Made by a program: the position numbers and the translations under genes
Notes under the pieces: generated by a model
What the model saw: the letters and a program-made list of their open reading frames with translations, nothing else
Databases searched by the model: none
Told to the model about the DNA's origin: nothing
Source of the DNA: Bodo saltans
Taxonomy: Eukaryota
Assembly (NCBI GenBank): GCA_001460835.1
Contig: CYKH01002023.1
Span: 1-23,432 of the forward strand
Direction: 5' to 3'
DNA: 23,432 nt
In this document: in pieces, positions 1,497-19,611 of the stretch
Position numbering within the stretch: the first letter of the stretch is position 1
Layout of the letters: each line of letters starts with the position of its first letter

Positions 1497-3257
1497 ATGC
1501 CACCCAAGGGAAAGAAGAAGGGACAGTCCAAGGAGGAGCTTGAGCGCATTGCTCGAGAGCAAGAAGAGCTGCAACGGATTCAAGAACTGTTGCAGCGAGA
1601 GAGTGAGGCTGAAGACCGCCAGCGACGAGAAAATGAACGACGCGATGCTGAGGAGAACGAGGAACGTAAGCGTGCCAAGAAAGAAGAGCAAATGCGATTG
1701 ATGGCGGAGAAAGATTCTCGCATTTTGCTGCTGACGACTGAACTGGATTCCCAAAAGACATTATTCTCTTCTGAGAGATTTGAGCTGGAAGCAGAGCTTG
1801 AGCGCATGCTTCAACTGAAAGACTCCTTGCTGAATGAAGTCAGTGTATTGCGAGCAGAGGGTGACGACATCCAGCGGAAGCTCCTTGAGGAACGAAACGA
1901 AGTCACTTACGCGCTGGATTCAGCAAACCAGGACAACAAGAAGCTGCAAACTGAACTTTCTGCTCTTGGCGATGCAAACCGAAAAGAGATATCTGAGTTA
2001 GACTCGAATCTTCGTGAAACCCAGCAACAGCTCGAAGTCCTTTCGGCAACACATAAGCGTCTCGACTGGGAAAGCTCTTCACGAATCAAGAACTTGGAAC
2101 GCGAGTTGGAGAAAAGTAAAGCACTCATCAATACTTTGCAGGAAGCTCTGCAAGAGCGAAACGAAGAAGATCGCAGGAACGTCACCCTTCTCCAGATGCT
2201 GAACCACCAGCTTGATGAAAACAAGCAGCGATCTCAACAGCTTCTCGAAGAAGAGCGCGAGAAAACTCAAAAGGTCAAGAAAGAGCTCCTCACTGTCGAG
2301 ACTCTCGTGAAACAGCTCCAAGAGGAAAACGATTTGCACCGTCGTGAGAAAGAGGCGTTCAAACGTCAGTCAGAGAATGATTTGCAGGACTACAAGTCAA
2401 AGCTTGAGCAGATGAAGTTCGACATGAAGTACTTGCACACAGAGCTTCACAGCTTCAAAGCGATGTGCTCAAAACACCAACAAGAGTCAACGCAAGTGAA
2501 GGCTTCAGCTGCAACCGAAACTAGCAACGCTCGCATCGAAGTTGATTCTGTGAACAAGAAAGTGGATGAGCTAGAAAGTCTCATTCGCCGCAAGGACCGT
2601 GAACACTTTGACAAGGTGACATTTCTCAATGCTCAAATTTCAAACAACCGCACCATTATCTCTCAACTTCAACACAAGCTCTCTCGAGAACGCGACGAGC
2701 ATGTTGCTGATTCTTCTGCAGTTGCAACCGAAGTTCAGGAAAAAGCACTGACAATTCAATCATTGCACTCTGACTTGGAGAAGAAAAAGTCAAGTGCATA
2801 CGAAAACGAAGCAAAGCTCTCTTCAGATATTTCAATTTTGAAATCTACTGTGTTTCAACTCCAAGCAGCTCTAGTTGAGCGCGAGAAGCAACTTGAGACT
2901 TCACGTGCAGCTCAAAATGAAGAAATTCGTCGCTTGCGCTCGAAACTCGATGAGCATTTCATTCCTCATCGCAATGAAGAGAACGGCGTGACAGTGGACG
3001 AGAAGTCCGTCGAAACTGCATTGAGCGAGAAAGTTAGCTTCTTGACTCGAGAGTTGGAGCTTCGCAACAAGGTTGCTCTTGAAAATGAACAGCGCATGAA
3101 AGGCCAGGTTTCAAATCAAAATCAAATTATTGACAGCCTTCAAGAAGAACTTCACAAGACAAAGTCTGAGTGGCGTGCAGAGGTAAAGCTGCTTGATGAT
3201 GAGATTGGTCGATTGAAAAAGACTCTTGACGTTCATTTTATCCCTTACCAGAAGTAG
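1497..3257 (+). CDS. coiled-coil protein, 586 aa, with a Lys/Glu/Arg-rich N-terminus
   Basis: ATG at 1497 is preceded by pyrimidine tract 1461-1486 and an AG at 1487-1488. The protein is almost entirely heptad-like E/K/R/L/Q sequence (MPPKGKKKGQSKEELERIAREQEELQRIQELLQRESEAEDRQRRENERR...). No enzymatic motif. Confidence 0.75.
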   Translation: MPPKGKKKGQSKEELERIAREQEELQRIQELLQRESEAEDRQRRENERRDAEENEERKRAKKEEQMRLMAEKDSRILLLTTELDSQKTLFSSERFELEAELERMLQLKDSLLNEVSVLRAEGDDIQRKLLEERNEVTYALDSANQDNKKLQTELSALGDANRKEISELDSNLRETQQQLEVLSATHKRLDWESSSRIKNLERELEKSKALINTLQEALQERNEEDRRNVTLLQMLNHQLDENKQRSQQLLEEEREKTQKVKKELLTVETLVKQLQEENDLHRREKEAFKRQSENDLQDYKSKLEQMKFDMKYLHTELHSFKAMCSKHQQESTQVKASAATETSNARIEVDSVNKKVDELESLIRRKDREHFDKVTFLNAQISNNRTIISQLQHKLSRERDEHVADSSAVATEVQEKALTIQSLHSDLEKKKSSAYENEAKLSSDISILKSTVFQLQAALVEREKQLETSRAAQNEEIRRLRSKLDEHFIPHRNEENGVTVDEKSVETALSEKVSFLTRELELRNKVALENEQRMKGQVSNQNQIIDSLQEELHKTKSEWRAEVKLLDDEIGRLKKTLDVHFIPYQK

Positions 3258-3359
3258 AATTCCATTGGACTACATGTACGAAAGATGTTAGATGTACCAA
3301 GAGCAGCATCTTCCGATAAAATATTAAGATAGTGATGCCCTCATCTTCCACGAATCATG

Positions 3360-3387
3360 TTCTTGTTTTTGTTTTTTTTCATGACAG
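3360..3387 (+). promoter_or_regulatory. pyrimidine tract plus AG before the LKR/SDH gene
   Basis: tcttgtttttgttttttttc, then acag at 3384-3387. Confidence 0.45.
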
Positions 3388-3416
3388 TCCTAGAAAGCCA
3401 TAAATCAGATATCGAG

Positions 3417-6302
3417 ATGCTTCGTCGCAGCGTTTGCCGCTCAGCAATTGCCGGCAACGGGATCATTGGCGTTCGTCGTGAAGACAAGAACGTTTGGGAG
3501 CGTCGCGTACCACTTACACCGAAGCATGTTGAGCATCTTCTTCAGCATGGCGTTGTCAAGAAAGTCATTGTACAGCCGTCAACTATTCGCTGCTATGACG
3601 ATCGCGCGTACGCTGAGGCTGGCGCGGAGATCAAGGAGGATCTTTCTGAGGCTGCTACAATTTGCGCAGTCAAAGAGGTTCCTGGTCAGCTGTTGATTCC
3701 AGAGCGCTCATACATGTTCTTTTCTCACACCATCAAGGCTCAGTCGTACAACATGCCACTGCTTGACACGATCTTGCAAAAAAACGTTCGACTCTTTGAC
3801 TACGAGAGGATCGTGAACACCGATGGACGTATGGTCAAATTTGGACCGTACGCCGGGTTTGCAGGAATGATCGACACGCTGCACGCACTGGGCCTTGCCT
3901 TGCTGACTCGAGGATATGCGACTCCTTTCCTTCACCTTTCGATGTCGAAGGAGTACAGCAGTCTCGATGTTGCGCGCGCTGATCTTCGTGAGATCGGTGA
4001 ACAAATTCGCAAGCGTGGACTCCCCTCTGAGTGCTGCCCACTCACGATTGCCATTACTGGCGCTGGCAGTGTCAGCAATGCAGCGCAACAGATTTTGCAC
4101 CTTCTCCCCTGCAAATATGTTGAGGTCGAAGATTTGCCCAAGATTTGGAACCAACGCACCAAAGACCACCATCATGTGTATGTTGTCGTTGTTCGCTCGA
4201 AGGACATGGTTGTTCCGATTGACCCTGCTCGTCGCTTCTCGTCGAAGGACTACTATCAAAACCCGAATGACTACAAGCCAATTTTTCACGAGAAGGTTGC
4301 GCCGTACATCCGATGCCTTGTGAACGGCATGTACTGGGAGCCTCGATTCCCTCGGCTGTTGACAACAACTCAAGCACGAGAGCTTGCCAAGGATAACCGT
4401 TTCCCATTGCTTGCTCTTGGAGAGATTACTTGCGATGTTGGCGGGTCTATTGAGTTTTTTGTCAAAGCTACGACAATTCAGAATCCATTTTACGTATATG
4501 ATATTCAAACAGATGCTGTCATGGAGATGCATCAGTTCAATGGCAAAGGTGTGATTATTCTTGGTGTTGATCACATCCCCGCAGAATTCCCGAAGGAGTC
4601 ATCCACAGACTTCGGTGATGGGCTTGTTCCTCTCATCGAACGTGTTTCAGTCAGCGATGGGTCTGCGAGTCTCGAACAGCAAAGTGAGCAAATGGGTCCT
4701 GAGATATTCAATTCTATGATCACCTGCAAAGGACAGTTAACTCCGAACTTCAAGTACATTGCTACTCTGCGGGCCCAGAAGGAAAGTCAAGCGGAGAGTA
4801 AGCGCAAGGTGCTTGTGTTTGGAGGTGGTATGACCTCAGGCCCATGCGTACGACACTTGCTGCAAGACGGCCGCAACATCGTTACGCTTGTGGACAAAGA
4901 TCAGTCAAACCTGAACAAAATTGCTGCTACGTTCGGCAAGAACCTTGGTCTTGAAGATGGCAGTGGCGGCCTTCGTCATGCTGTCGCTGATGCAGGTAAG
5001 GTTGATTCTTACATCACTTCGCTGATCAAAGCATCTGATGTTGTTGTGTCAATGCTGCCGGCAACAATGCACGCCAAGATTGCGGAGACCGCAATCGCGT
5101 GCAACGTTCCCATGGTCACTGCGAGTTACGTCGCGCCTGAAATGGAGAAACTCCGCAAGCAAGCGGAGGCTCAGAACGTCGTTATCGTTAACGAAATGGG
5201 ACTTGACCCTGGTATTGACATTATGACAACTGCCAAGCTGCTCAATGAAATCCGTCGCGACGGAGGAGTTGTAACCAGTTATGTCTCGCTCTGTGGAGCA
5301 CTACCTCAACCTGAAAACTCAGATGGTCCTATGGGCTACAAATTTTCGTGGAGCCCTCGTGGCGTCCTTTCGGCAGCCACTCGCCCCGCCCGCTTTTACG
5401 CTGGCAAGCAATGGCATGAGATTCCAGGTGACTTGCTTTATCACTTTATTCAGCCCCTTGTTGGCTTCAAGGGTCTAGATCTCAACTGGATCCCGAACGG
5501 CGATGCTGAACGATACTTGAACAGCTACCAGCTCGGTGGGCCGGAGGTCGATACAATTATTCGAGGAACACTGCGCTACAGTGCGTTCGCACCTGTTATT
5601 TACGCGCTGCGACCCTTGGGAATGCTCGATGCATCGACACCAGTGGAAGAGTTGACAATGAAGTCCTCCAAGTTCCTAAGCTATCCTTCACTCCTAAGAA
5701 AGATGATTGGTTCAACAAACCGCGATCAAGTGGTGAATGATCTCGCTGCGTTTTTGACGAAACGCATTTCTGAGGACCGCGCCCGTGCTCATGCCACCGA
5801 GACTTGGAAAGCACTTCAAAACGTCAAGATGAGTTCCGATGTCAGCCCGTCCGCACTTGTCACTCTTGAGCGAGAAGTATCCATTATCATGAGCACATTT
5901 GCTCGGCTTGGCCTGTTGGATGAGAACTCTATCGTTCCCAAAACTAACGACGGATTTGTGATCGATTCTCTCTGCACAACGCTGCAAGCATTGATGGGCT
6001 ACCGTTCTCACGAGCGCGACTTCACTATGATGATTCACCGCATTCGTGCATTCTTCCCGAAGACTGGAAAGAACAAGGTGTACAAGGCTACTCTGTCTCT
6101 CCGCGGACAGGATCTTGCCAATACCGCAACAGCGATCACTGTTGGACTTCCAGTTGGCGCCACGGCCCAGCTGATCCTCAACAATGGGCTTGCAGGCAAG
6201 AACGGTTTGATTAGCCCTACAGATGAGCGAGTGTACCTCCCGATTCTTGCCGAACTTGACCGCCAAGGAATCCGCATGCATGAGGAGTGCCGTGAAGAGT
6301 AA
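3417..6302 (+). CDS. bifunctional lysine-ketoglutarate reductase / saccharopine dehydrogenase (alpha-aminoadipic semialdehyde synthase-like)
   Basis: N-terminal half GVRREDKNVWERRVPLTPKHVEHLL...AITGAGSVSNAAQQ matches the alanine-dehydrogenase/PNT-type LKR domain. C-terminal half KVLVFGGGMTSGPCVRHLL...VTASYVAPEM...MGLDPGIDIM matches the saccharopine dehydrogenase NADP-binding and C-terminal domains. The track ORF starts at ATG 3357, but codons 1-8 (MFLFLFFF) are the pyrimidine tract itself. The first AG after the tract is at 3386-3387, so ATG 3417 is the likely start (MLRRSVCRSAIAG, presequence-like); ATG 3381 is an alternative. Confidence 0.85.
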   Translation: MLRRSVCRSAIAGNGIIGVRREDKNVWERRVPLTPKHVEHLLQHGVVKKVIVQPSTIRCYDDRAYAEAGAEIKEDLSEAATICAVKEVPGQLLIPERSYMFFSHTIKAQSYNMPLLDTILQKNVRLFDYERIVNTDGRMVKFGPYAGFAGMIDTLHALGLALLTRGYATPFLHLSMSKEYSSLDVARADLREIGEQIRKRGLPSECCPLTIAITGAGSVSNAAQQILHLLPCKYVEVEDLPKIWNQRTKDHHHVYVVVVRSKDMVVPIDPARRFSSKDYYQNPNDYKPIFHEKVAPYIRCLVNGMYWEPRFPRLLTTTQARELAKDNRFPLLALGEITCDVGGSIEFFVKATTIQNPFYVYDIQTDAVMEMHQFNGKGVIILGVDHIPAEFPKESSTDFGDGLVPLIERVSVSDGSASLEQQSEQMGPEIFNSMITCKGQLTPNFKYIATLRAQKESQAESKRKVLVFGGGMTSGPCVRHLLQDGRNIVTLVDKDQSNLNKIAATFGKNLGLEDGSGGLRHAVADAGKVDSYITSLIKASDVVVSMLPATMHAKIAETAIACNVPMVTASYVAPEMEKLRKQAEAQNVVIVNEMGLDPGIDIMTTAKLLNEIRRDGGVVTSYVSLCGALPQPENSDGPMGYKFSWSPRGVLSAATRPARFYAGKQWHEIPGDLLYHFIQPLVGFKGLDLNWIPNGDAERYLNSYQLGGPEVDTIIRGTLRYSAFAPVIYALRPLGMLDASTPVEELTMKSSKFLSYPSLLRKMIGSTNRDQVVNDLAAFLTKRISEDRARAHATETWKALQNVKMSSDVSPSALVTLEREVSIIMSTFARLGLLDENSIVPKTNDGFVIDSLCTTLQALMGYRSHERDFTMMIHRIRAFFPKTGKNKVYKATLSLRGQDLANTATAITVGLPVGATAQLILNNGLAGKNGLISPTDERVYLPILAELDRQGIRMHEECREE

Positions 6303-10552: not shown

Positions 10553-10840
10553 ATGGCAGCAGAGGCAGCGCACATTCTGAAAAAGAAATCGTCGATCTTG
10601 GCCCTAGAAAAATATCTTGACAAGAGGATAACAGTTGTGCTCGAGGACGAGACAGAATGCAGGGCAATTTTGAAAGGATTTGACAATAACATGGGGCTCG
10701 TGCTGGCTGACGCAGAGCTCTGGATGCCAGGTGCCCCACAACCCCACCGAAAAATTGGGACAACAATCATCCGAGGACGAGCGGTTGCGGAGATCTTGTC
10801 GAGTGACGCAGCGATGTTGGCTTCCAATCCTTTTCAGTGA
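10553..10840 (+). CDS. LSM7: Sm-like protein LSm7
   Basis: Sm1 motif LEKYLDKRITVVLEDETECRAILKGFDNNMGLVLADAEL and Sm2 motif RKIGTTIIRGRAVAEI. The N-terminal KKKSSIL and C-terminal NPF motifs resemble LSm7 orthologues (human KKKESILDLSKYIDK...NPF). The track ORF starts at TTG 10526, and the first ATG is 10553. Confidence 0.7.
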   Translation: MAAEAAHILKKKSSILALEKYLDKRITVVLEDETECRAILKGFDNNMGLVLADAELWMPGAPQPHRKIGTTIIRGRAVAEILSSDAAMLASNPFQ

Positions 10841-11621: not shown

Positions 11622-14468
11622 ATGTCTGACGACTACCGGTTTGCTGATGAGGTTGCCAAGAGAAGCAACAAAGAGCTTGGCGCTTATGGTGGTGACGTTG
11701 TACCGGGCATCATGACTCGCACTATTACTGGAGTTGCGCGAGGAGAAGAGTTGTTTTCCCGCCCCGAGCTGCACCGGCCTTGGCGAACGCCGACAACTCA
11801 GCGCCATGCTGAAGTTGTAGTGGCGAAGGAGCAAGAGATTGAAGTTCTGACAAGAAAGTTAACAGAACTTCGATCACAGGTGGCAACTGGCAATAGAGAG
11901 ATTCAACGAATTCAAAGTGCCAACAAGATTCAACTGAAGACCGAGCTAGATGCGAAGGACAGGATTATTGTAGATCTAAAAGACAAAATCGAGCTTGCCG
12001 CTCGAGATCTCGTCGAGACGAAGGCAAACTACGAAAGTCAAATCAAGGCGCTTAAGTCACAGCAAGATATTGACATGGGGAAGGTGCAGTCGAAACTGAA
12101 GCAGGCATCTGACTCTGCTGGCGAACTCAGTGCCGTGTACACAAAGCAGATCGATGATATCAAAGCTGCCGCAGCCCGGGAAGTCGACCTTATCCAGCGT
12201 CTTTGCAATTCTCGTACTGCAGAGCTGAGCGATGAACTAAAGATTTCGAATGAAGCGCTTCGAAAGTGCCAAGAGCGCCACCTTGTGTCGATTGGAGAGT
12301 TACAGGCCGAAATGCGCCGTAACGAATCTCGTGTGATGGAACAACTACGCGAACAAGAGAAGCGTTTCGAGGCAATGCGCACTTCACTACAGTCAGAGAG
12401 ACAAACCGTTGAGTTCCAGCGAGACAAGGTGAGTACCGAGAAGGCTGACAGCCAAGACCGCTTACGCTCAACTGGCGAAGATCTGAAAATTACCGAACAA
12501 CGCTTCCGAGATTGGAACGCCCGCATTCTCTCGGACTTGGACCAGATCTTTGAGTACTACTCCGCCATGATTCGCGAGGTTGAGAAAGAGTCACCGTTAC
12601 CCTCGACTGACGTGTTGCCCCAGCAGAGGGTGACCGATGTGTACATCCCCCCTCGTCTGTCCTCTGAACCTGTCACACGGGTGTCCATGGATCGAATCAT
12701 CGAACGGCTCTTCCAACTGACCCTTATGAAGCAAAGCCACTCGAGTGCTTCTCAATCACTCCTGCGCAAGATCCGAAACATGGAAGTTGACTTTGCATCA
12801 AAGAGCGAGGCAACACATCGTACTGCCGATGAGAAGGAGCTCCAATTGACGCGCCTTCTCACTGAAGTTGTGGAGTCACGTGGACGACAAGAGCGCCTTG
12901 AGAAGGCAATAGCCGAATCCCAAGTTCAGTTTGCTGATTTAGAAAGCAGGCTCTCAGCTGCCACCATCCGACTGCAGTTCTTCAACGACGACCTCGCTTC
13001 AGCCTTGTCGAGCCCAGCTGCTACAGTCGCACCTCCCACGAAAGACGTGACATTTGTGCTCGTTGCAGTCGAGGGAGGCAATATTCTGTGGGAGAGCGAC
13101 CCTCAGGCTGCAAGCACTTCACTCATGATGATGAACAATGCCATCCGCGCTAAGATGGCTCAGTATGGCGCGTACGAGTGCTTTAGCGACGGAACAACGA
13201 TGATGCTGGCATTCCACGATCCGATTGCCGCCTGTCGATTTGCCCTTGAGAGTCAACTTTGGCTTATGGAGTTACCGTGGCCCGCGTCGATCACAGCGCA
13301 TTACAACACGTGCGACACGTTCCACGAAGATGAAAAGGGCAACCGCTTCTTGATCTTCCGTGGGCTACGCGCAGCGATGGCCATTCACTCTGGCGACGTC
13401 GAGATGGAGCCTACTGGCCTTCCTGTTGGCGTTGGCGAGAGCCGCGTTCACTACTTTGGGCGTACGGTCATTCAGTCTCTGCACCTTGCCAGCATGGCAG
13501 TCGGCGGTCAGATTGTGGTGTCCAATCAGGTGTGGCAGCGTGTGAAGACGCGAACTGATGACCTCGGCAAACCTGCCGTCACAGACCTTGGAGACCACAG
13601 ATTGACTGTTGCCCTTCGAGGGGGAAGCGACGGTCCCACAACGAGTGAGGTGATCACTCTTGTGCAGCTTCAGCCCGCTCAGCTTGCAGCACGCAAGTTC
13701 GATCGCCAGTCAATGTTCGATGCTAGGAAGCATCTTCATGTCGCAGACAGTACTGGCATCACTCCGCAACTCTCGCACATTCGCCGCTCGACGCTTACAG
13801 ATGAGGTGACATCGCTGCGGTCTCGTCAATCAGTTGTTACCAAGGCCATGGAAACGCTGCAAGATGAGTCATCGGCGGTAGGAACGAACCTTGACGCACT
13901 GGTTGTGAAGATTCGAGATGCTCGTGCAGGAACTCACATCTTCAACGCTGCTGATTTACAGACCCAAGCCACAACAGTCGACCGCTTGGTGTCCAAGTTA
14001 GACGTGGTCAAATCTGACCTTGGTCGTGCCTTAACCTCGAACGAAGACCTTCGCCAGAAGTGCAAAAGTTTAGAAGATACGTTGGCTCTACACTCCCGAG
14101 TGACGATGTCCGAAGATGACTTTAGGCGAAGAATTGAGATCGCGAATGAGCGCTGCAACCAACAAGTCTTCGAGGCAAACCAGCAAAGTGAGTCGAAGCT
14201 GCAACAGTTACGTCAAGCACTTGCGCAGTTTGAACAGCAGAACACGGAGTTGCGTCGGCAACTTCACGGGCCATCCCATCTTCAACCGCTTGGCGAACAT
14301 CCAACTCAGTCGCTGGCACAGTCAGGCCGAGCAACCTCAACAACAAAGCGAACGGCAAGCACAAAGCCTGTTCGCACAGCATCTTCGGCGACGGAGAGTC
14401 GCAGCGGAAACTCCCCAACCTTTCCGGACAAACTGAAGAAAACAGTGAGCACTGGACGAAATCATTAG
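11622..14468 (+). CDS. coiled-coil protein with a central class III adenylate/guanylate-cyclase homology domain, probably catalytically degenerate
   Basis: ATG 11622. Coiled-coil sequence is present at aa ~70-330 and ~720-890, and the tail is Ser/Thr-rich. Residues ~475-685 align with the cyclase homology fold: VTFVLVAVEGGNILWE against canonical VTLxFTDIEGSTALWE, FSDGTTMMLAF against GDAFMVAF, and LRAAMAIHSGDV...HYFGRTVIQSLHLASMAVGGQIVVS against RVGIHSGxV...WGNTVNLASRMES...I. Confidence 0.75.
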   Translation: MSDDYRFADEVAKRSNKELGAYGGDVVPGIMTRTITGVARGEELFSRPELHRPWRTPTTQRHAEVVVAKEQEIEVLTRKLTELRSQVATGNREIQRIQSANKIQLKTELDAKDRIIVDLKDKIELAARDLVETKANYESQIKALKSQQDIDMGKVQSKLKQASDSAGELSAVYTKQIDDIKAAAAREVDLIQRLCNSRTAELSDELKISNEALRKCQERHLVSIGELQAEMRRNESRVMEQLREQEKRFEAMRTSLQSERQTVEFQRDKVSTEKADSQDRLRSTGEDLKITEQRFRDWNARILSDLDQIFEYYSAMIREVEKESPLPSTDVLPQQRVTDVYIPPRLSSEPVTRVSMDRIIERLFQLTLMKQSHSSASQSLLRKIRNMEVDFASKSEATHRTADEKELQLTRLLTEVVESRGRQERLEKAIAESQVQFADLESRLSAATIRLQFFNDDLASALSSPAATVAPPTKDVTFVLVAVEGGNILWESDPQAASTSLMMMNNAIRAKMAQYGAYECFSDGTTMMLAFHDPIAACRFALESQLWLMELPWPASITAHYNTCDTFHEDEKGNRFLIFRGLRAAMAIHSGDVEMEPTGLPVGVGESRVHYFGRTVIQSLHLASMAVGGQIVVSNQVWQRVKTRTDDLGKPAVTDLGDHRLTVALRGGSDGPTTSEVITLVQLQPAQLAARKFDRQSMFDARKHLHVADSTGITPQLSHIRRSTLTDEVTSLRSRQSVVTKAMETLQDESSAVGTNLDALVVKIRDARAGTHIFNAADLQTQATTVDRLVSKLDVVKSDLGRALTSNEDLRQKCKSLEDTLALHSRVTMSEDDFRRRIEIANERCNQQVFEANQQSESKLQQLRQALAQFEQQNTELRRQLHGPSHLQPLGEHPTQSLAQSGRATSTTKRTASTKPVRTASSATESRSGNSPTFPDKLKKTVSTGRNH
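13044..13676 (+). other. cyclase-homology domain (class III nucleotidyl cyclase fold) inside CDS 11622..14468
   Basis: See the alignment above. The first metal-binding Asp of the F-T-D-I-E motif is Ala here (V-A-V-E-G-G). The second Asp (S-D-G) is retained. The Asn/Arg transition-state pair is apparently not conserved (GRTV...LASM). Confidence 0.55.
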
Positions 14469-16104: not shown

Positions 16105-19100
16105 ATGCGTAGTTTTCAACGAAGACCACGATCAACGCTCCGGGTTACAGCGCCCGCGCCGCTTGTAATTGAGACGCAGGTGCTGGACAGAGAGCGCAGT
16201 CAGCATACGAGCTGGTTTTCATGGATGCTGTTCTGTTTTCGTCCTGCTCGAGTAGTTTCTGTTGCACCTACGCCTGCTCGCCCAATCCGTCCCCACGTTT
16301 CGCATGTTTCCACCAGCCCATTGGCGTGCATTGTTGCGTTCAACCAGTCGCGATGGATGGCGATTGTGGTTGCTGCCACCACAATCCCACGAGTGCCGAT
16401 CGACCCCGTGGTGAGATGGTACTCTTCCCAAATCACAAAACGAGTCCTCAGCTCTGAGACAGTCCTTCAGTTACTAAGAAGTCCAAAATTTGACCATCAC
16501 TTCGCACTTGTCCAGAGCTGCTTCCTGAACGCAAAACAAGTTGTCGTTGATGGTGCCCATGCTATGTCCATGTTAGGGTGTCTTCCTGCGACGGAAAGGC
16601 AAATAATTCTATGTGAGCATCTGTTGAATGATCCCTCGTCAACAGTTGCAGGGCTGCTCCCTGGCGCGACGAGGTTGCTGAGCGATCCAACGAACCTGCG
16701 CACCTGGCATGATGCCCTTCGCATGATGGAGACCCTCCACTCATCTACAACTGTATGGCGCGACCCTGATCTGGCGCTCCGCTTGATGTTGTGCCTGAGC
16801 CGAAGTCCTCCTGCTCACACATCGAGCCGGGTTCATCAGAATGCACTCTTGGAGTCTACTCCGCAACTTCATGCAGTCGCAGTTAGCCGACAGTTTTGCC
16901 GTGAAAGCCTTTGGCTGCTTGCACTATGTAGTTGCCCTCTGAACCACGCGGTTAGAGATGAGCTCAACGTTCGTGCTCGCTTCGAAATTGGCGACTGGGT
17001 TGGTGCACTCGAGGCGGCTACCACTTCGTCCTCGAGTGCGTTGCGGTCCACGGCAATAGAGCTTCTCATTCGGAACGAGCAAACTGTTTTGGCATGTGTT
17101 GCCATACGTCAAAGTGACAGAGATTCAACAAAACTCTCGCCGGCTTCGATTGCATTGTTACTTGCTCAGCTAGCACGCCGAAAGCGCACGCACGATGAGT
17201 CGCAGTGGTACCGGCTAGTGATCGATGACATGATTAACATCCTCCATCAACGTGAACATGTGGGCAACCCCGCTGTGGACGTGGCGGCGGCGGTGGCACT
17301 TGGTGCCTGTGGCTCATGGGAGCGGGTCCTGAGACTGTGCGCTGGGCATTCTGGTAGCATTCCCATTGTCATGACGCTGCTGGTTGCCGCAGCTGGTGGA
17401 GGTGCACCGTGGGAGGTCCTGCAACGTCACACAGTTTCACTCATGAAGACATCATCGCCTACTTCCGCGTCAACATGTGAAATGCTTGTGCGGTGTGCGC
17501 TCGAGGCCGGCGCGTGGCAGGAAGCGGTTCAGATGTATGTGAATAACCATCAGGCATACAAATTACCGGTGGAGGTCCTCGACCATCCTTCTCTTGTCTC
17601 TCATGTCAGTGTTCCGTTCTCGAGCACCACATATTCTTTCGTTGGGCAATGGAGGGAAGCCCTTGAGGCAGAGCGCAGGGCTGGTGTGATTTCCACACTG
17701 CAAACATCAGCGGGGCGCTGCCTTGCTGCAAATGAGCATTGCTGGCAAGTCGCTCTTAGCATAACACAGACGACCGAAGAACGCCTGCGCGTTGCTCGCA
17801 ATCTCCTGGAAACATCGCTGTGGCAGGTTGGACTTGAACTTTTGACTGCAGCGCTTCCAACTGAAACACCCACCGTTCGAACTCTGTTTTTACACTCTGC
17901 TGCTCGTACGTTGAGCTCCCGGAACCCCAAGGCGTCGCTGGATTTACTTGCGACTCACGACAGTGAGTGCCTTGGGAGTAAGGGGCGAGCAGCACTGCTC
18001 CTGCAAACTGTTCTCAAGAGTCCCAGCAACGGTGCAATGGATGCCCTTGTCCCTTGGCTCTCTTGGAGCGATGCAATCATATGCCTGCAACGTCACCGAG
18101 AGCGACCTTCGACCGCTGTATTTTTGAACAGCGTGTTAACGTACTACCATCATCAGCCAGCGAGGCAAACAAAATTGATGGTCGCGCTTCGATTGCTCTC
18201 ATCACGACGCGGTCGGCGGTTGCCATCGGAACGCTCCTTCACGTTATTATTCGAGGCGCAGCGAACCCGTGCGTTTGCATCGTTATCCGCAACACCGATA
18301 CCTGCCGTTGAGACGGAGGAACATGGCCTTCCGCAAGATCTCGAGGCGGGACCAGCGTCAGGGCTGAGGGCATGGTGGGCTGCATTGGAGCTTCTTTCGC
18401 GGCCTATTTCAGCAACGACCAAGCGACCATGGCAGCACCTTGGGGATTGCCCTGACGATCTATTGATTCATGCTGTCACCACACGGCGTCCTTCGCAAGA
18501 CGCCGCAGGGCTTTGTGTATCCGGTTTGTCTGCTCGTGGTCGATGGGAGTTAGCTACCCGCATGATGCAGTCTCTAGCGAGTCAGAAGACATTTCCTGAC
18601 ATGGAGAGCCTCGTCGAGTTAATCGAGTCGGCGGTCCGGCTGCCATCTGATGCTCCACTGCTTCATTGTGTCGACGCACTTCGTCAATGTACGCCCCCTT
18701 CTGTGTTTAACAACGTGCTTCGTGCAGTTGCTGAGCGAAGTGCAAATGAGCGAGGTGCGACGTGGGCTGGGGCACTTCAAGTGCTATCCACTGTGGCACT
18801 TGCTGGGGTACCATACGTTCCTTCATCAGTGGTGCAGAGGATCGCTGAGCTTGCCCCGTCGAAGGCGGCACGAGCTGCTATGCACTTGCTCGACGCGAGG
18901 AGCAGCTCACAACAAACATCACCGATGGCGATGGACGCAGCAGCTATTTGCCATGTTGTTTCAGCAGCCGCGACAGCTCAGTTGGAACCAATCGTTGAAG
19001 TGTTCGAGATGCGGCGAGGGTCCTTCACAGGTGCGATGTCAACCTTGCCATTCACGTTCGATGGATCTTCAAACAAAGTCATACGACGACTCGCGACGTT

Positions 19101-19611
19101 GCCGATGCCGTCATTGTGGTACATTGCTCTGGAGGCTTGCATGTCAAAAGCAACCACTCGAAGCTACAATCGAGCATTCTTGTTAACTGCTGTTGGTTGT
19201 GATGACGGAGCGACACTGACCAAAGTCGCTCTTGCTATGGGAGGTCATGTCGGTGCCAGTCAGTCGCTGCTGGCACCCAAATCAGCATTGCCAGCTTTTC
19301 AATCTCGTGGGAGCGGCTACTCCCCTATGACATGTTGTGCTGTGAGCTGCGCGCTGGCGCACAAATTTGGAAAATGGGAGCTGGCTCTGCAAGTTCTGCC
19401 AGCCAATGATGAACTCAGTCGCACTGCTAGAGTGGCGATTACCCACTGCACTGGACATTTTGATGACGCACTGAAGGAGACCTTGCAGTTGTACCGTCAG
19501 GAGCTCAAGAAGAAGCCACGAGCTCCTCGAACTTCACAAAGAGAGGCACTTCGTATCCTTGCGTGCTCAAACGATCTGACCGATCGTAATCCACTGTGGT
19601 GGATACTGTAA
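16105..19611 (+). CDS. large (1168 aa) Ala/Leu-rich helical-repeat protein, possibly PPR/TPR-like, with an Arg-rich N-terminus
   Basis: The track ORF starts at TTG 16078, and the first ATG is 16105 (MRSFQRRPRSTLRVTAPAPL, mitochondrial-presequence-like). There are repeated about 35-aa helix-turn-helix-looking units, e.g. CEMLVRCALEAGAWQEAVQMYVNNHQAYKLPVEVL. No catalytic motif is recognised. Confidence 0.6.
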   Translation: MRSFQRRPRSTLRVTAPAPLVIETQVLDRERSQHTSWFSWMLFCFRPARVVSVAPTPARPIRPHVSHVSTSPLACIVAFNQSRWMAIVVAATTIPRVPIDPVVRWYSSQITKRVLSSETVLQLLRSPKFDHHFALVQSCFLNAKQVVVDGAHAMSMLGCLPATERQIILCEHLLNDPSSTVAGLLPGATRLLSDPTNLRTWHDALRMMETLHSSTTVWRDPDLALRLMLCLSRSPPAHTSSRVHQNALLESTPQLHAVAVSRQFCRESLWLLALCSCPLNHAVRDELNVRARFEIGDWVGALEAATTSSSSALRSTAIELLIRNEQTVLACVAIRQSDRDSTKLSPASIALLLAQLARRKRTHDESQWYRLVIDDMINILHQREHVGNPAVDVAAAVALGACGSWERVLRLCAGHSGSIPIVMTLLVAAAGGGAPWEVLQRHTVSLMKTSSPTSASTCEMLVRCALEAGAWQEAVQMYVNNHQAYKLPVEVLDHPSLVSHVSVPFSSTTYSFVGQWREALEAERRAGVISTLQTSAGRCLAANEHCWQVALSITQTTEERLRVARNLLETSLWQVGLELLTAALPTETPTVRTLFLHSAARTLSSRNPKASLDLLATHDSECLGSKGRAALLLQTVLKSPSNGAMDALVPWLSWSDAIICLQRHRERPSTAVFLNSVLTYYHHQPARQTKLMVALRLLSSRRGRRLPSERSFTLLFEAQRTRAFASLSATPIPAVETEEHGLPQDLEAGPASGLRAWWAALELLSRPISATTKRPWQHLGDCPDDLLIHAVTTRRPSQDAAGLCVSGLSARGRWELATRMMQSLASQKTFPDMESLVELIESAVRLPSDAPLLHCVDALRQCTPPSVFNNVLRAVAERSANERGATWAGALQVLSTVALAGVPYVPSSVVQRIAELAPSKAARAAMHLLDARSSSQQTSPMAMDAAAICHVVSAAATAQLEPIVEVFEMRRGSFTGAMSTLPFTFDGSSNKVIRRLATLPMPSLWYIALEACMSKATTRSYNRAFLLTAVGCDDGATLTKVALAMGGHVGASQSLLAPKSALPAFQSRGSGYSPMTCCAVSCALAHKFGKWELALQVLPANDELSRTARVAITHCTGHFDDALKETLQLYRQELKKKPRAPRTSQREALRILACSNDLTDRNPLWWIL

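What the first reader, a model, noticed from the sequence alone, without database searches (positions are those of the whole stretch)
13044..13676. Cyclase-homology domain with a substituted metal-binding Asp, embedded in a long coiled-coil protein
Residues about 475-685 of the 948-aa protein align well with class III adenylate/guanylate cyclase catalytic domains (VTFVLVAVEGGNILWE against VTLxFTDIEGSTALWE, FSDGTTMM against GDAFM, AIHSGDV against IHSGxV). The first metal-coordinating Asp is Ala, and the Asn/Arg pair of the GNTVN...ASRM region is not conserved, while the second Asp is kept. Kinetoplastid cyclases are usually receptor-type membrane proteins with an extracellular domain and one TM helix. 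Here the domain instead sits between two long coiled-coil regions with no TM helix. This looks like a soluble or cytoskeletal pseudo-cyclase, or the regulatory half of a heterodimeric cyclase, and could be a scaffold for cAMP-signalling components. The domain is well supported by sequence, and the inferred function is speculative.
Basis: partly seen in the sequence, partly recalled or inferred. Interest (0 to 1): 0.65.

Follow-up and report, generated by a model that had tools for sequence, protein, structure and literature searches.

The report
Dead cyclase domain in coiled-coil protein
A 948-residue soluble Bodo saltans protein, annotated "guanylate cyclase, putative", has a real cyclase-fold domain between two coiled coils, but all six catalytic residues are replaced, so it is almost certainly a non-catalytic protein, conserved across kinetoplastids and diplonemids.

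Summary
ORF 11622-14468 (+) encodes a 948-aa protein identical to Bodo saltans CUG92242.1 ("guanylate cyclase, putative"). Residues about 470-700 are a genuine class III cyclase homology domain (CHD). Support: PDB 1fx2 E 3.6e-11, AlphaFold pLDDT 87, Foldseek 1fx2 E 1e-14 and TM 0.72-0.75. Pfam PF00211 falls just below its cut-off (20.5 against 21.9 bits). All six canonical catalytic positions are substituted: A482, F521, T525, H610, I617, H621. The "kept second Asp" is a register error. D523 aligns with the Glu of KT-E-GD in relatives, and T525 occupies the metal-Asp position. The flanks are long helices with heptad periodicity, and there is no TM helix. Collinear orthologues occur in trypanosomatids (T. 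rangeli, Leishmania, Strigomonas, Phytomonas), a prokinetoplastid and diplonemids. None of 18 keeps the first Asp. The catalytic columns drift while 11 fold residues are invariant. The best conserved part is an N-terminal motif, RGEELFxRPExxRPWR. The closest active relatives are not trypanosome receptor cyclases. They are a broad soluble CHD clade, 31-36% identical, that includes cytoskeleton-tethered amoebozoan cyclases. The most likely reading is a homodimeric coiled-coil scaffold with a dead CHD dimer as its central node. An active heterodimer is ruled out. No literature on the family was found.

The parts
11622..14468 (+). Complete gene for the 948-aa protein, identical to Bodo saltans CUG92242.1 / UniProt A0A0S4JP59 ('guanylate cyclase, putative').
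   Evidence: ORF list and translation. Exact-sequence look-up. Collinear orthologues in conserved synteny.
11727..11846 (+). N-terminal signature motif, aa 36-75: TGvaRGEELFsRPELhRPWRTpttQRHAevvvaKEqEIE. It is the most conserved segment of the family.
   Evidence: 15-orthologue alignment. R24, G25, P32, R36, P37, W38, R39, E54 and E58 of alignment A4 are invariant from Bodo to diplonemids. There is no significant Pfam or PDB match.
11790..13010 (+). N-terminal helical, coiled-coil-like region, aa 57-463. It is interrupted by a non-helical segment at aa 322-349.
   Evidence: AlphaFold2 full-length model has helices 57-165, 169-321 and 350-463 (pLDDT is low overall). Heptad periodicity exceeds the 99th percentile of shuffles in several blocks, 42% of residues are charged or Gln, and 3% are Pro+Gly.
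12585..12668 (+). Non-helical break in the N-terminal rod, aa 322-349. It contains the motif YIPPRL, conserved in kinetoplastid members.
   Evidence: alignment block 318-360.
12969..13010 (+). Conserved linker RLQFFNDDLASALS, aa 450-463, joining the coiled coil to the cyclase domain. It may be the counterpart of a cyclase transducer element.
   Evidence: R-L-x-F-F-x-D-D-L is conserved from Bodo to diplonemids. The comparison to the cyclase transducer element is from memory and was not tested.
13029..13721 (+). Class III cyclase homology domain, aa 470-700, catalytically degenerate. It includes a short insertion at the position of the trypanosomal delta-subdomain (PWP motif, aa 552-554).
13065..13484 (+). 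Span holding the six substituted catalytic codons:
- A482 (13065-13067), first metal Asp.
- F521 (13182-13184), substrate Lys.
- T525 (13194-13196), second metal Asp.
- H610 (13449-13451), substrate Asp.
- I617 (13470-13472), transition-state Asn.
- H621 (13482-13484), transition-state Arg.
   Evidence: Alignments. Coordinates.
13764..14264 (+). C-terminal helical, coiled-coil-like region, aa 715-881.
   Evidence: AlphaFold2 helices 715-768, 776-826 and 831-881, with pLDDT 63-85. Strong heptad signal at 720-745, 770-800 and 840-865.
14265..14465 (+). Ser/Thr-rich, poorly conserved, probably disordered tail, aa 882-948.
   Evidence: pLDDT below 40 with no secondary structure. 33% Ser+Thr. 0-30% identity to orthologues.

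Best explanation
The gene encodes a soluble, rod-like protein in which a class III cyclase homology domain (CHD) has lost catalysis and is kept as a structural module.

Shown:
- The domain has the CHD fold.
- All six residues needed for metal binding, base recognition and transition-state stabilisation are replaced.
- The loss is shared by all orthologues across Kinetoplastea and Diplonemea.
- The catalytic columns drift freely while the fold core is invariant.
- The flanks are long heptad-bearing helices, with no TM segment.
- The most conserved element is a short N-terminal motif, RGEELFxRPExxRPWR.

Inferred:
- The two flanking coiled coils and the conserved RLxFFxDDL linker bring two chains together in parallel. 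The two dead CHDs then form the usual head-to-tail CHD dimer as a globular node in the middle of a long homodimeric rod.
- The N-terminal motif anchors the rod to a partner conserved in Euglenozoa, probably a cytoskeletal or flagellar structure.
- The CHD node and the C-terminal rod offer docking surfaces.

The protein makes no cAMP or cGMP, so the database name 'guanylate cyclase, putative' is a misnomer.
For: - CHD fold.
- Six substitutions.
- Orthologue states: 0 of 18 keep the first Asp and 5 of 18 keep the second. The Lys column holds 1 Lys (Papus) and 1 Arg (Sulcionema). The substrate Asp is kept in 0 of 18, the Asn in 1 of 18 and the Arg in 0 of 18.
- Column entropy: the six catalytic columns sit at the 41st-98th percentile of variability. 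R509, E519, F531, W553, G581, R583, G591, Y611, G613, G629 and Q630 are invariant.
- Architecture.
- The linker and the N-terminal motif are conserved as far as diplonemids.
- Active-type relatives of the same CHD clade are fused to cytoskeleton-binding modules. Balamuthia KAL6077383 has two CH domains, then coiled coil, CHD and coiled coil, and it aligns collinearly with profile positions 378-812. P0088 has p25-alpha plus CHD, and P0065 has CHD plus LIM.
- Conserved synteny and purifying selection on the whole ORF: 39-79% identity across metagenomic kinetoplastid relatives.
Against: - No experimental or localisation data could be retrieved for any orthologue.
- The T. brucei, T. cruzi and L. 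major gene IDs were not identified. No orthologue is present in PDB cryo-EM models.
- Homodimerisation and the CHD-CHD interface are inferred, not modelled. The full-length AlphaFold model is poor (pLDDT 52) and monomeric.
- H610 and H621, at two pocket positions, are fairly conserved in kinetoplastid members (9 of 18 and 11 of 18). This could mean the pocket has a new ligand-binding role and is not functionless.
- The coiled-coil call rests on a home-made heptad score and predicted helices, not on a calibrated predictor.
Confidence: 0.55

Rival explanations
1. Natural dominant-negative decoy. The dead CHD heterodimerises with the CHD of canonical adenylate cyclases (receptor-type or soluble). 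This leaves both interface sites incomplete, damps cAMP production, or parks cyclases at a particular place.
For: - Class III CHDs are obligate dimers. A partner lacking both residue sets kills both sites (established knowledge).
- Dominant-negative CHD heterodimers are documented for trypanosome ESAG4, insect sGC beta3 and mammalian AC8 (discussed in PMC9481589).
- B. saltans has receptor-type ACs (PMC9481589).
- The CHD fold and surface are under strong constraint.
Against: - The domain is only 24% identical to trypanosome RAC CHDs and belongs to another CHD clade.
- It is bracketed on both sides by its own long coiled coils, with a conserved linker. This favours pairing with a second copy of itself.
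- The orthologue is present in lineages with very different cyclase repertoires, from trypanosomatids to diplonemids.
Confidence: 0.15
2. Non-catalytic ligand sensor. The remodelled pocket, with H610 and H621 in kinetoplastids, binds a nucleotide, metal or other small molecule. Binding is passed through the linker into the coiled coils, as in signal-regulated cyclases run in reverse.
For: - H at the former Arg position in 11 of 18 orthologues and H at the former substrate-Asp position in 9 of 18.
- The CTE-like linker is conserved.
- Degenerate second sites of heterodimeric cyclases (forskolin site, sGC pseudosymmetric site) bind regulators (established knowledge).
Against: - The His pair is absent from Papus, the diplonemids and several kinetoplastid members.
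- The other four pocket columns are among the most variable of the domain: the Lys position is at the 98th percentile and the Asn position at the 95th.
- The phosphate-binding loop after the first Asp is also degenerate, GGN or GAA instead of GST.
Confidence: 0.15
3. It is still an active guanylate or adenylate cyclase, as the database annotation says, using non-canonical or migrated catalytic residues.
For: - The public name is 'guanylate cyclase, putative'.
- An acidic residue (D523) lies two positions from the lost metal Asp, and E484 is retained.
- Pseudoenzymes with migrated residues are known (PMC10211241 abstract).
Against: - All six canonical residues are replaced, including both metal ligands.
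- D523 corresponds to a Glu already present next to the intact Asp in active relatives (KTEGD), so it is ancestral and not a migrated ligand.
- No alternative acidic pair is conserved across the orthologues. The first-Asp column reads A, S, C, T, R, F, G or V.
Confidence: 0.03

Closest known systems
Trypanosoma brucei receptor-type adenylate cyclases GRESAG4.1 and GRESAG4.3 (PDB 1fx2, 1fx4)
   Same: - Same class III CHD fold. These are the best solved-structure matches by sequence (E 3.6e-11) and by fold (Foldseek E 1e-14, TM 0.72-0.75).
- An insertion at the position of the trypanosomal delta-subdomain.
- A shared C-terminal QL-x-P-x-x-L-x-x-R-x-F segment.
   Different: - No extracellular domain and no TM helix. 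Coiled coils lie on both sides instead.
- All six catalytic residues are replaced.
- Only 24% identity, so this is not the closest CHD clade.
Soluble and cytoskeleton-tethered CHD proteins with intact D-K-D-D-N-R, such as Balamuthia mandrillaris KAL6077383 (CH-CH, coiled coil, CHD, coiled coil), Cochliopodium minus EP01091_P021251 and diplonemid multi-CHD proteins (Hemistasia)
   Same: - Closest CHD sequences outside the orthogroup: 31-36% identity, E 1e-32 to 4e-39.
- The Balamuthia protein shares the collinear arrangement of coiled coil, CHD and coiled coil.
   Different: - These keep all six catalytic residues and score 76-92 bits per CHD on PF00211.
- They lack the N-terminal RGEELFxRPExxRPWR motif, as far as was seen.
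Half-site subunits of heterodimeric class III cyclases (mammalian AC C1 and C2, sGC alpha and beta)
   Same: CHDs that have lost part of the catalytic set yet stay essential as dimer partners (established knowledge).
   Different: Each of those keeps one complementary half: the Asp pair, or Lys/Asp/Asn/Arg. The window protein keeps neither half, so it cannot complete a site with any partner.
Globin-coupled oxygen-sensing adenylate cyclases of Leishmaniinae (OAC / HemAC)
   Same: Soluble kinetoplastid CHD proteins. They were recovered as weak homologues, e.g. Strigomonas P0008.
   Different: OACs have a globin domain and an intact catalytic set, DEKDDNR in P0008. The window protein has neither. 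Reviews of trypanosomatid cyclases describe only RACs and OACs (PMC7719234, PMC6027212).

Membership tests
Class III nucleotidyl cyclase catalytic domain (CHD, Pfam PF00211) | CHD fold | tested here: met
   AlphaFold2 pLDDT 87, pTM 0.86. The 50 best Foldseek PDB hits listed are all class III cyclases. The best is 1fx2, E 1e-14, TM 0.72/0.75.
Class III nucleotidyl cyclase catalytic domain (CHD, Pfam PF00211) | Significant sequence match to the family profile | tested here: inconclusive
   PF00211 gives 20.5 bits against a gathering cut-off of 21.9, E 3.8e-4. Trypanosomatid, Papus and diplonemid orthologues get no PF00211 hit at E<=0.001. But phmmer to 1fx2 gives E 3.6e-11, and blastp to canonical CHDs reaches E 4e-39.
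Class III nucleotidyl cyclase (as an enzyme) | Two metal-binding Asp residues | tested here: not met
   A482 and T525 occupy these positions. The first Asp is absent in 18 of 18 orthologues and the second is present in 5 of 18.
Class III nucleotidyl cyclase (as an enzyme) | Substrate-specifying pair: Lys/Asp for ATP, Glu/Cys-type for GTP | tested here: not met
   F521 and H610. This is neither the AC nor the GC pattern.
Class III nucleotidyl cyclase (as an enzyme) | Transition-state Asn and Arg | tested here: not met
   I617 and H621.
Class III nucleotidyl cyclase (as an enzyme) | Cyclase activity | not testable with these tools
   Needs an enzyme assay.
Kinetoplastid receptor-type adenylate cyclase (ESAG4/GRESAG4 type) | Large extracellular N-terminal domain plus a single TM helix before the CHD | tested here: not met
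   No Pfam domain N-terminal of the CHD. The N-terminal 460 residues are helical rod. Maximum 19-residue hydropathy is 1.35, with no window above 1.6.
Oxygen-sensing adenylate cyclase (globin-coupled) | N-terminal globin domain | tested here: not met
   No globin hit in Pfam at E<=10.
Half-site subunit of a heterodimeric cyclase | Keeps one complete complementary residue set: the Asp pair, or Lys/Asp/Asn/Arg | tested here: not met
   Neither set is retained.
Unnamed euglenozoan orthogroup of coiled coil, pseudo-CHD, coiled coil (T. rangeli XP_029241608, Leishmania KAG5487564, Papus, Sulcionema, Artemidia) | Collinear architecture, the N-terminal RGEELFxRPExxRPWR motif, the RLxFFxDDL linker and a CHD lacking the first Asp | tested here: met
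   Full-length profile hits are collinear.

The most novel reading that the evidence does not exclude
Euglenozoa carry a third, so far undescribed class of cyclase-homology protein alongside receptor and oxygen-sensing cyclases. It is an ancient, catalytically dead CHD dimer mounted on a cytoskeletal or flagellar coiled-coil rod. The CHD would have a new role, either as a ligand-sensing node (the His pair in the old active site) or as a docking or decoy platform that organises or restrains cAMP-signalling enzymes at a fixed cellular position. The N-terminal RGEELFxRPExxRPWR motif would be a new anchoring module.
Probability: 0.2. Interest if true: 0.7.

Novelty: new variant of a known kind. 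Interest (0 to 1): 0.45.

Why it matters
cAMP signalling in trypanosomatids is unusual. They have dozens of receptor cyclases, a cAMP-independent PKA and few known effectors. Reviews list only receptor-type and globin-coupled cyclases (PMC6027212, PMC7719234).

A single-copy CHD protein retained since before the kinetoplastid-diplonemid split, yet with no catalytic residues, is a clean example of a class III cyclase pseudoenzyme. It is also a candidate structural or regulatory element that has been overlooked. Pfam does not detect the domain in the parasite orthologues, which are labelled 'hypothetical protein'.

Practically, the B. saltans annotation 'guanylate cyclase, putative' and UniRef names such as 'adenylate cyclase' for the Leishmania orthologues should not be counted as evidence for cGMP or cAMP synthesis capacity. 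The finding has limited immediate impact until localisation or phenotype data are linked to it.

Tried and rejected
1. I looked for a characterised T. brucei, T. cruzi or Leishmania orthologue in the literature. Seven looked for a description of the family or its orthologues, including its public accessions. I also read cAMP and cyclase papers. None mentions such a protein. None of the CARP1-11 proteins matches the orthologues in length.
2. I guessed from memory that the T. brucei orthologue lies next to LSm7 at Tb927.5.4030. A search for neighbouring gene IDs returned unrelated genes, so I dropped this.
3. I searched PDB with the T. rangeli orthologue and with the family profile, to see whether an orthologue is modelled in flagellar or other cryo-EM maps. 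Only 1fx2 and 1fx4 were hit.
4. I searched PDB and Pfam with the N-terminal motif profile. Nothing was significant. IF1 ATPase inhibitor (E 0.04), RIMB1_N, Cnn_1N and CCDC92 (E about 0.004) are probably coiled-coil noise.
5. The full-length AlphaFold2 run with 5 sequences gave pLDDT 52 and an unfolded CHD. It is usable only for helix boundaries.
6. The afdb50 fold search, which might have named the T. brucei entry, was not available.
7. I rejected the idea that D523 is a migrated metal ligand. Active relatives already have Glu there, beside an intact Asp.
8. I rejected the idea that the domain derives from the kinetoplastid RAC clade. It scores higher against amoebozoan, diplonemid and bacterial STAND-type CHDs.
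Full report
**What is at the locus**

The window carries densely packed genes, all on the + strand. ORF 11622..14468 (+) encodes a 948-aa protein. An exact-sequence look-up shows it is Bodo saltans CUG92242.1 / UniProt A0A0S4JP59, annotated 'guanylate cyclase, putative'. Its neighbours are CUG92238 to CUG92246: saccharopine dehydrogenase, a LysM protein, a TrkH-like transporter, a 171-aa membrane protein, thiolase, an EF-hand protein and major vault protein. The stated coordinates 13044-13676 correspond to aa 475-685.

**Is the cyclase domain real?**

Yes.
- phmmer against all PDB sequences hits only the two T. brucei receptor-cyclase catalytic domains at a significant level: 1fx2 at E 3.6e-11 over aa 471-696, and 1fx4 at E 1.3e-9.
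- A five-orthologue profile improves this to E 3e-13.
- Pfam PF00211 matches aa 470-642 at E 3.8e-4 with 20.5 bits. That is just under the curated cut-off of 21.9.
- An AlphaFold2 model of aa 455-700, built on a 21-sequence alignment, has pLDDT 87.2 and pTM 0.86.
- Its best Foldseek matches in PDB are 1fx2 and 1fx4 (E 1e-14 and 7.5e-14, TM 0.67-0.75), followed by other class III cyclases.

**Catalytic residues**

Three independent alignments agree on how the canonical hexad maps. They are phmmer to 1fx2, MAFFT with 20 CHDs and hmmalign of 269 CHDs.

| Canonical role | Window residue |
|---|---|
| First metal Asp (FTD-IE) | A482 |
| Substrate Lys (K-T-x-G-D) | F521 |
| Second metal Asp (G-D) | T525 |
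| Substrate Asp (Y-D-Y-x-G) | H610 |
| Transition-state Asn | I617 |
| Transition-state Arg | H621 |

S-D-G-T-T aligns with T-E-G-D-A or T-V-G-D-S. D523 is therefore the counterpart of a Glu that active relatives already carry next to an intact Asp. All six residues are lost, not three.

**Architecture**

There is no TM segment: the maximum 19-residue Kyte-Doolittle mean is 1.35. A full-length AlphaFold2 run is poor overall (pLDDT 52) and is used only for helix boundaries. It places continuous helices at 57-165, 169-321 and 350-463, and at 715-768, 776-826 and 831-881, with a disordered Ser/Thr-rich tail. A simple heptad score exceeds the 99th percentile of shuffles only in these flanks and never in aa 470-715. 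The description 'CHD between two coiled-coil regions, no TM' holds. The caveat is that no calibrated coiled-coil predictor was available.

**Family and distribution**

A word-indexed search found four close relatives, at 99, 67, 56 and 39% identity. All come from SRA or metagenome assemblies, and all sit in conserved gene order: LysM, LSm7, a protein of about 170 aa, this gene, then thiolase and/or a protein of about 1,050-1,180 aa, then the EF-hand protein.

An exhaustive profile search of 1.84 billion representatives gave 174 hits below 1e-30. Full-length collinear hits include:
- T. rangeli XP_029241608 ('hypothetical protein')
- Leishmania (Mundinia) KAG5487564 and relatives
- Strigomonas fragments
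- the prokinetoplastid Papus ankaliazontas
- the diplonemids Sulcionema specki and Artemidia motanka

A Phytomonas fragment was also found. Pfam does not detect PF00211 in the T. rangeli, Leishmania, Papus or Sulcionema members.

**Orthologue states**

In 18 orthologues the first-Asp column reads A, S, C, T, R, F, G or V, and never D. The second Asp survives in 5. The Lys column holds one Lys (Papus) and one Arg (Sulcionema). The substrate Asp survives in none, the Asn in one and the Arg in none.

By column entropy, the six positions lie at the 41st-98th percentile of variability within the domain. Eleven fold residues are invariant: R509, E519, F531, W553, G581, R583, G591, Y611, G613, G629 and Q630. 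The zero entropy of the comparison set is by construction, because that set was selected for DKDDNR.

So the fold is under purifying selection and the active site is not. The loss predates the kinetoplastid-diplonemid split, assuming the diplonemid sequences are orthologues. Their collinearity and shared N-terminal motif support that assumption.

**Other conserved elements**

The best conserved part of the whole protein is an N-terminal motif, TGxxRGEELFxRPExxRPWRxxxxQxxAxxxxxKExEIE. It is invariant at R, G, P, RPWR, E and E in all 15 full-length members. It has no significant Pfam or PDB match.

A linker, RLxFFxDDL, lies directly upstream of the CHD and is also conserved as far as diplonemids. 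From memory it resembles the cyclase transducer element that couples coiled coils to CHD dimers. That was not tested.

**Relatives with active sites**

The window CHD is 31-36% identical to CHDs with an intact D-K-D-D-N-R set. These come from Amoebozoa (Cochliopodium, Balamuthia), diplonemid multi-CHD proteins (Hemistasia, 5 CHDs) and proteins with STAND-TPR, CHASE2 or response-regulator architectures, whose source organisms were not looked up. Identity to trypanosome RAC CHDs is only 24%.

Balamuthia KAL6077383 has two calponin-homology domains, then coiled coil, CHD and coiled coil, collinear with profile positions 378-812. Another relative fuses p25-alpha, a tubulin-binding module, to CHDs, and another has LIM domains. 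This clade has therefore been tethered to the cytoskeleton repeatedly.

**Mechanism**

What is shown: the domain has the CHD fold, it has no catalytic residues, the protein is rod-like and soluble, and the N-terminal motif and linker are conserved.

What is inferred: class III CHDs act as head-to-tail dimers, and here each CHD is clamped between coiled coils on both sides. The most economical model is a parallel homodimeric rod with a dead CHD dimer as its central node. The rod would be anchored through the N-terminal motif to a partner conserved in Euglenozoa, and would work through protein-protein contacts. I put this at about 0.55 overall. The narrower claim 'not a cyclase' I put at about 0.95.

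Rivals:
- Inhibitory decoy for canonical cyclases, 0.15. There is precedent for dominant-negative CHD heterodimers, and B. saltans has receptor-type ACs (PMC9481589). But the CHD belongs to a different clade and has its own coiled coils.
- Remodelled ligand-sensing pocket, 0.15. H610 and H621 are conserved in 9 of 18 and 11 of 18 orthologues, but the His pair is absent in basal members.
- Residual catalysis, 0.03.

Each interface site needs the Asp pair from one subunit and Lys/Asp/Asn/Arg from the other, and this protein supplies neither.

**Known or new?**

The sequence and an automatic 'guanylate cyclase' label are public. The papers on trypanosomatid cyclases that I read describe only receptor-type and globin-coupled enzymes. 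One states that all isoforms share the receptor topology (PMC6027212, PMC7719234, PMC4561360). No paper in the searchable library cites the accessions. No orthologue is in PDB.

I could not reach TriTrypDB or TrypTag, so a localisation record for the T. brucei orthologue may exist. I rate this a new variant of a known kind, namely a class III cyclase pseudoenzyme in an undescribed euglenozoan coiled-coil orthogroup. It is of moderate interest: the sequence-level conclusions are solid and the function is open.

Noticed in passing
window 10553-10840 (+): A 95-aa LSm7-type Sm-like protein gene lies between the TrkH-like gene and the 171-aa membrane-protein gene. Its exact sequence is in the collection only from Logan and JGI sources (JGI name 'U6 snRNA-associated Sm-like protein LSm7'), not from NCBI. 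The flanking NCBI proteins have consecutive accessions, CUG92240 and CUG92241. The gene therefore appears to be unannotated in the B. saltans GenBank record.
   Followed up: partly
P0111 (Balamuthia mandrillaris KAL6077383.1, 828 aa); not in the window: An amoebozoan 'adenylate cyclase' with two N-terminal calponin-homology (actin-binding) domains, then a coiled coil, a CHD with all six catalytic residues, and another coiled coil. It looks like an actin-tethered soluble cyclase, and it is the closest active-type protein with the same arrangement of coiled coil, CHD and coiled coil.
   Followed up: partly
P0036, P0038, P0040 (Hemistasia and related; 1,535-2,037 aa); not in the window: Diplonemid-type proteins carry five tandem CHDs. 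Domains 1, 3, 4 and 5 keep D-K-D-D-N-R. Domain 2 is consistently degenerate (R-R/L-D-x-x-A). This suggests intramolecular pairing of active and inactive CHDs.
   Followed up: no
P0088 (798 aa) and P0065 (1,989 aa); not in the window: Other relatives in the same CHD clade are fused to p25-alpha (tubulin polymerisation-promoting protein) domains, or to C2, RasGAP and LIM domains.
   Followed up: no
window 16105-19611 (+): A 1,168-aa ORF with no Pfam match. A protein of similar size (1,044-1,054 aa) lies one or two genes downstream of the pseudo-cyclase gene in two related contig sets (L001/L002 and L006). It is followed by the EF-hand (calcineurin-B-like) gene in L001/L002. No function is known.
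   Followed up: no
window 3357-6302 (+): The bifunctional lysine-ketoglutarate reductase/saccharopine dehydrogenase ORF starts with an odd MFLFLFFFMTVLESHK. Cluster relatives from JGI are 1,002 aa against 981 aa here, so the annotated start may be wrong.
   Followed up: no
window 1497-3257 (+): A 586-aa ORF with a Lys/Glu-rich N-terminus has no Pfam match. Its exact sequence is not in the protein collection, unlike the eight other window ORFs submitted as coordinates in the same look-up. The public gene model may differ.
   Followed up: no
window 11727-11846 (+), aa 36-75 of the 948-aa protein: Single members of the N-terminal motif alignment give weak Pfam matches to RIMB1_N (5 of 15 members, best E 0.0036), Centrosomin motif 1 (Cnn_1N, 2 members, E 0.0039) and CCDC92 (3 members, E 0.014). 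These are probably coiled-coil noise. They are noted because Centrosomin and CCDC92 are, from memory, centrosome or basal-body proteins.
   Followed up: partly
P0039/P0185 (1,150-1,243 aa, SRA assemblies); not in the window: A longer relative matches the N-terminal region (profile 15-367). Its CHD match is split into two pieces (548-648 and 815-911) by an insertion of about 165 residues. It may be a paralogue or an insertion variant of the family.
   Followed up: no
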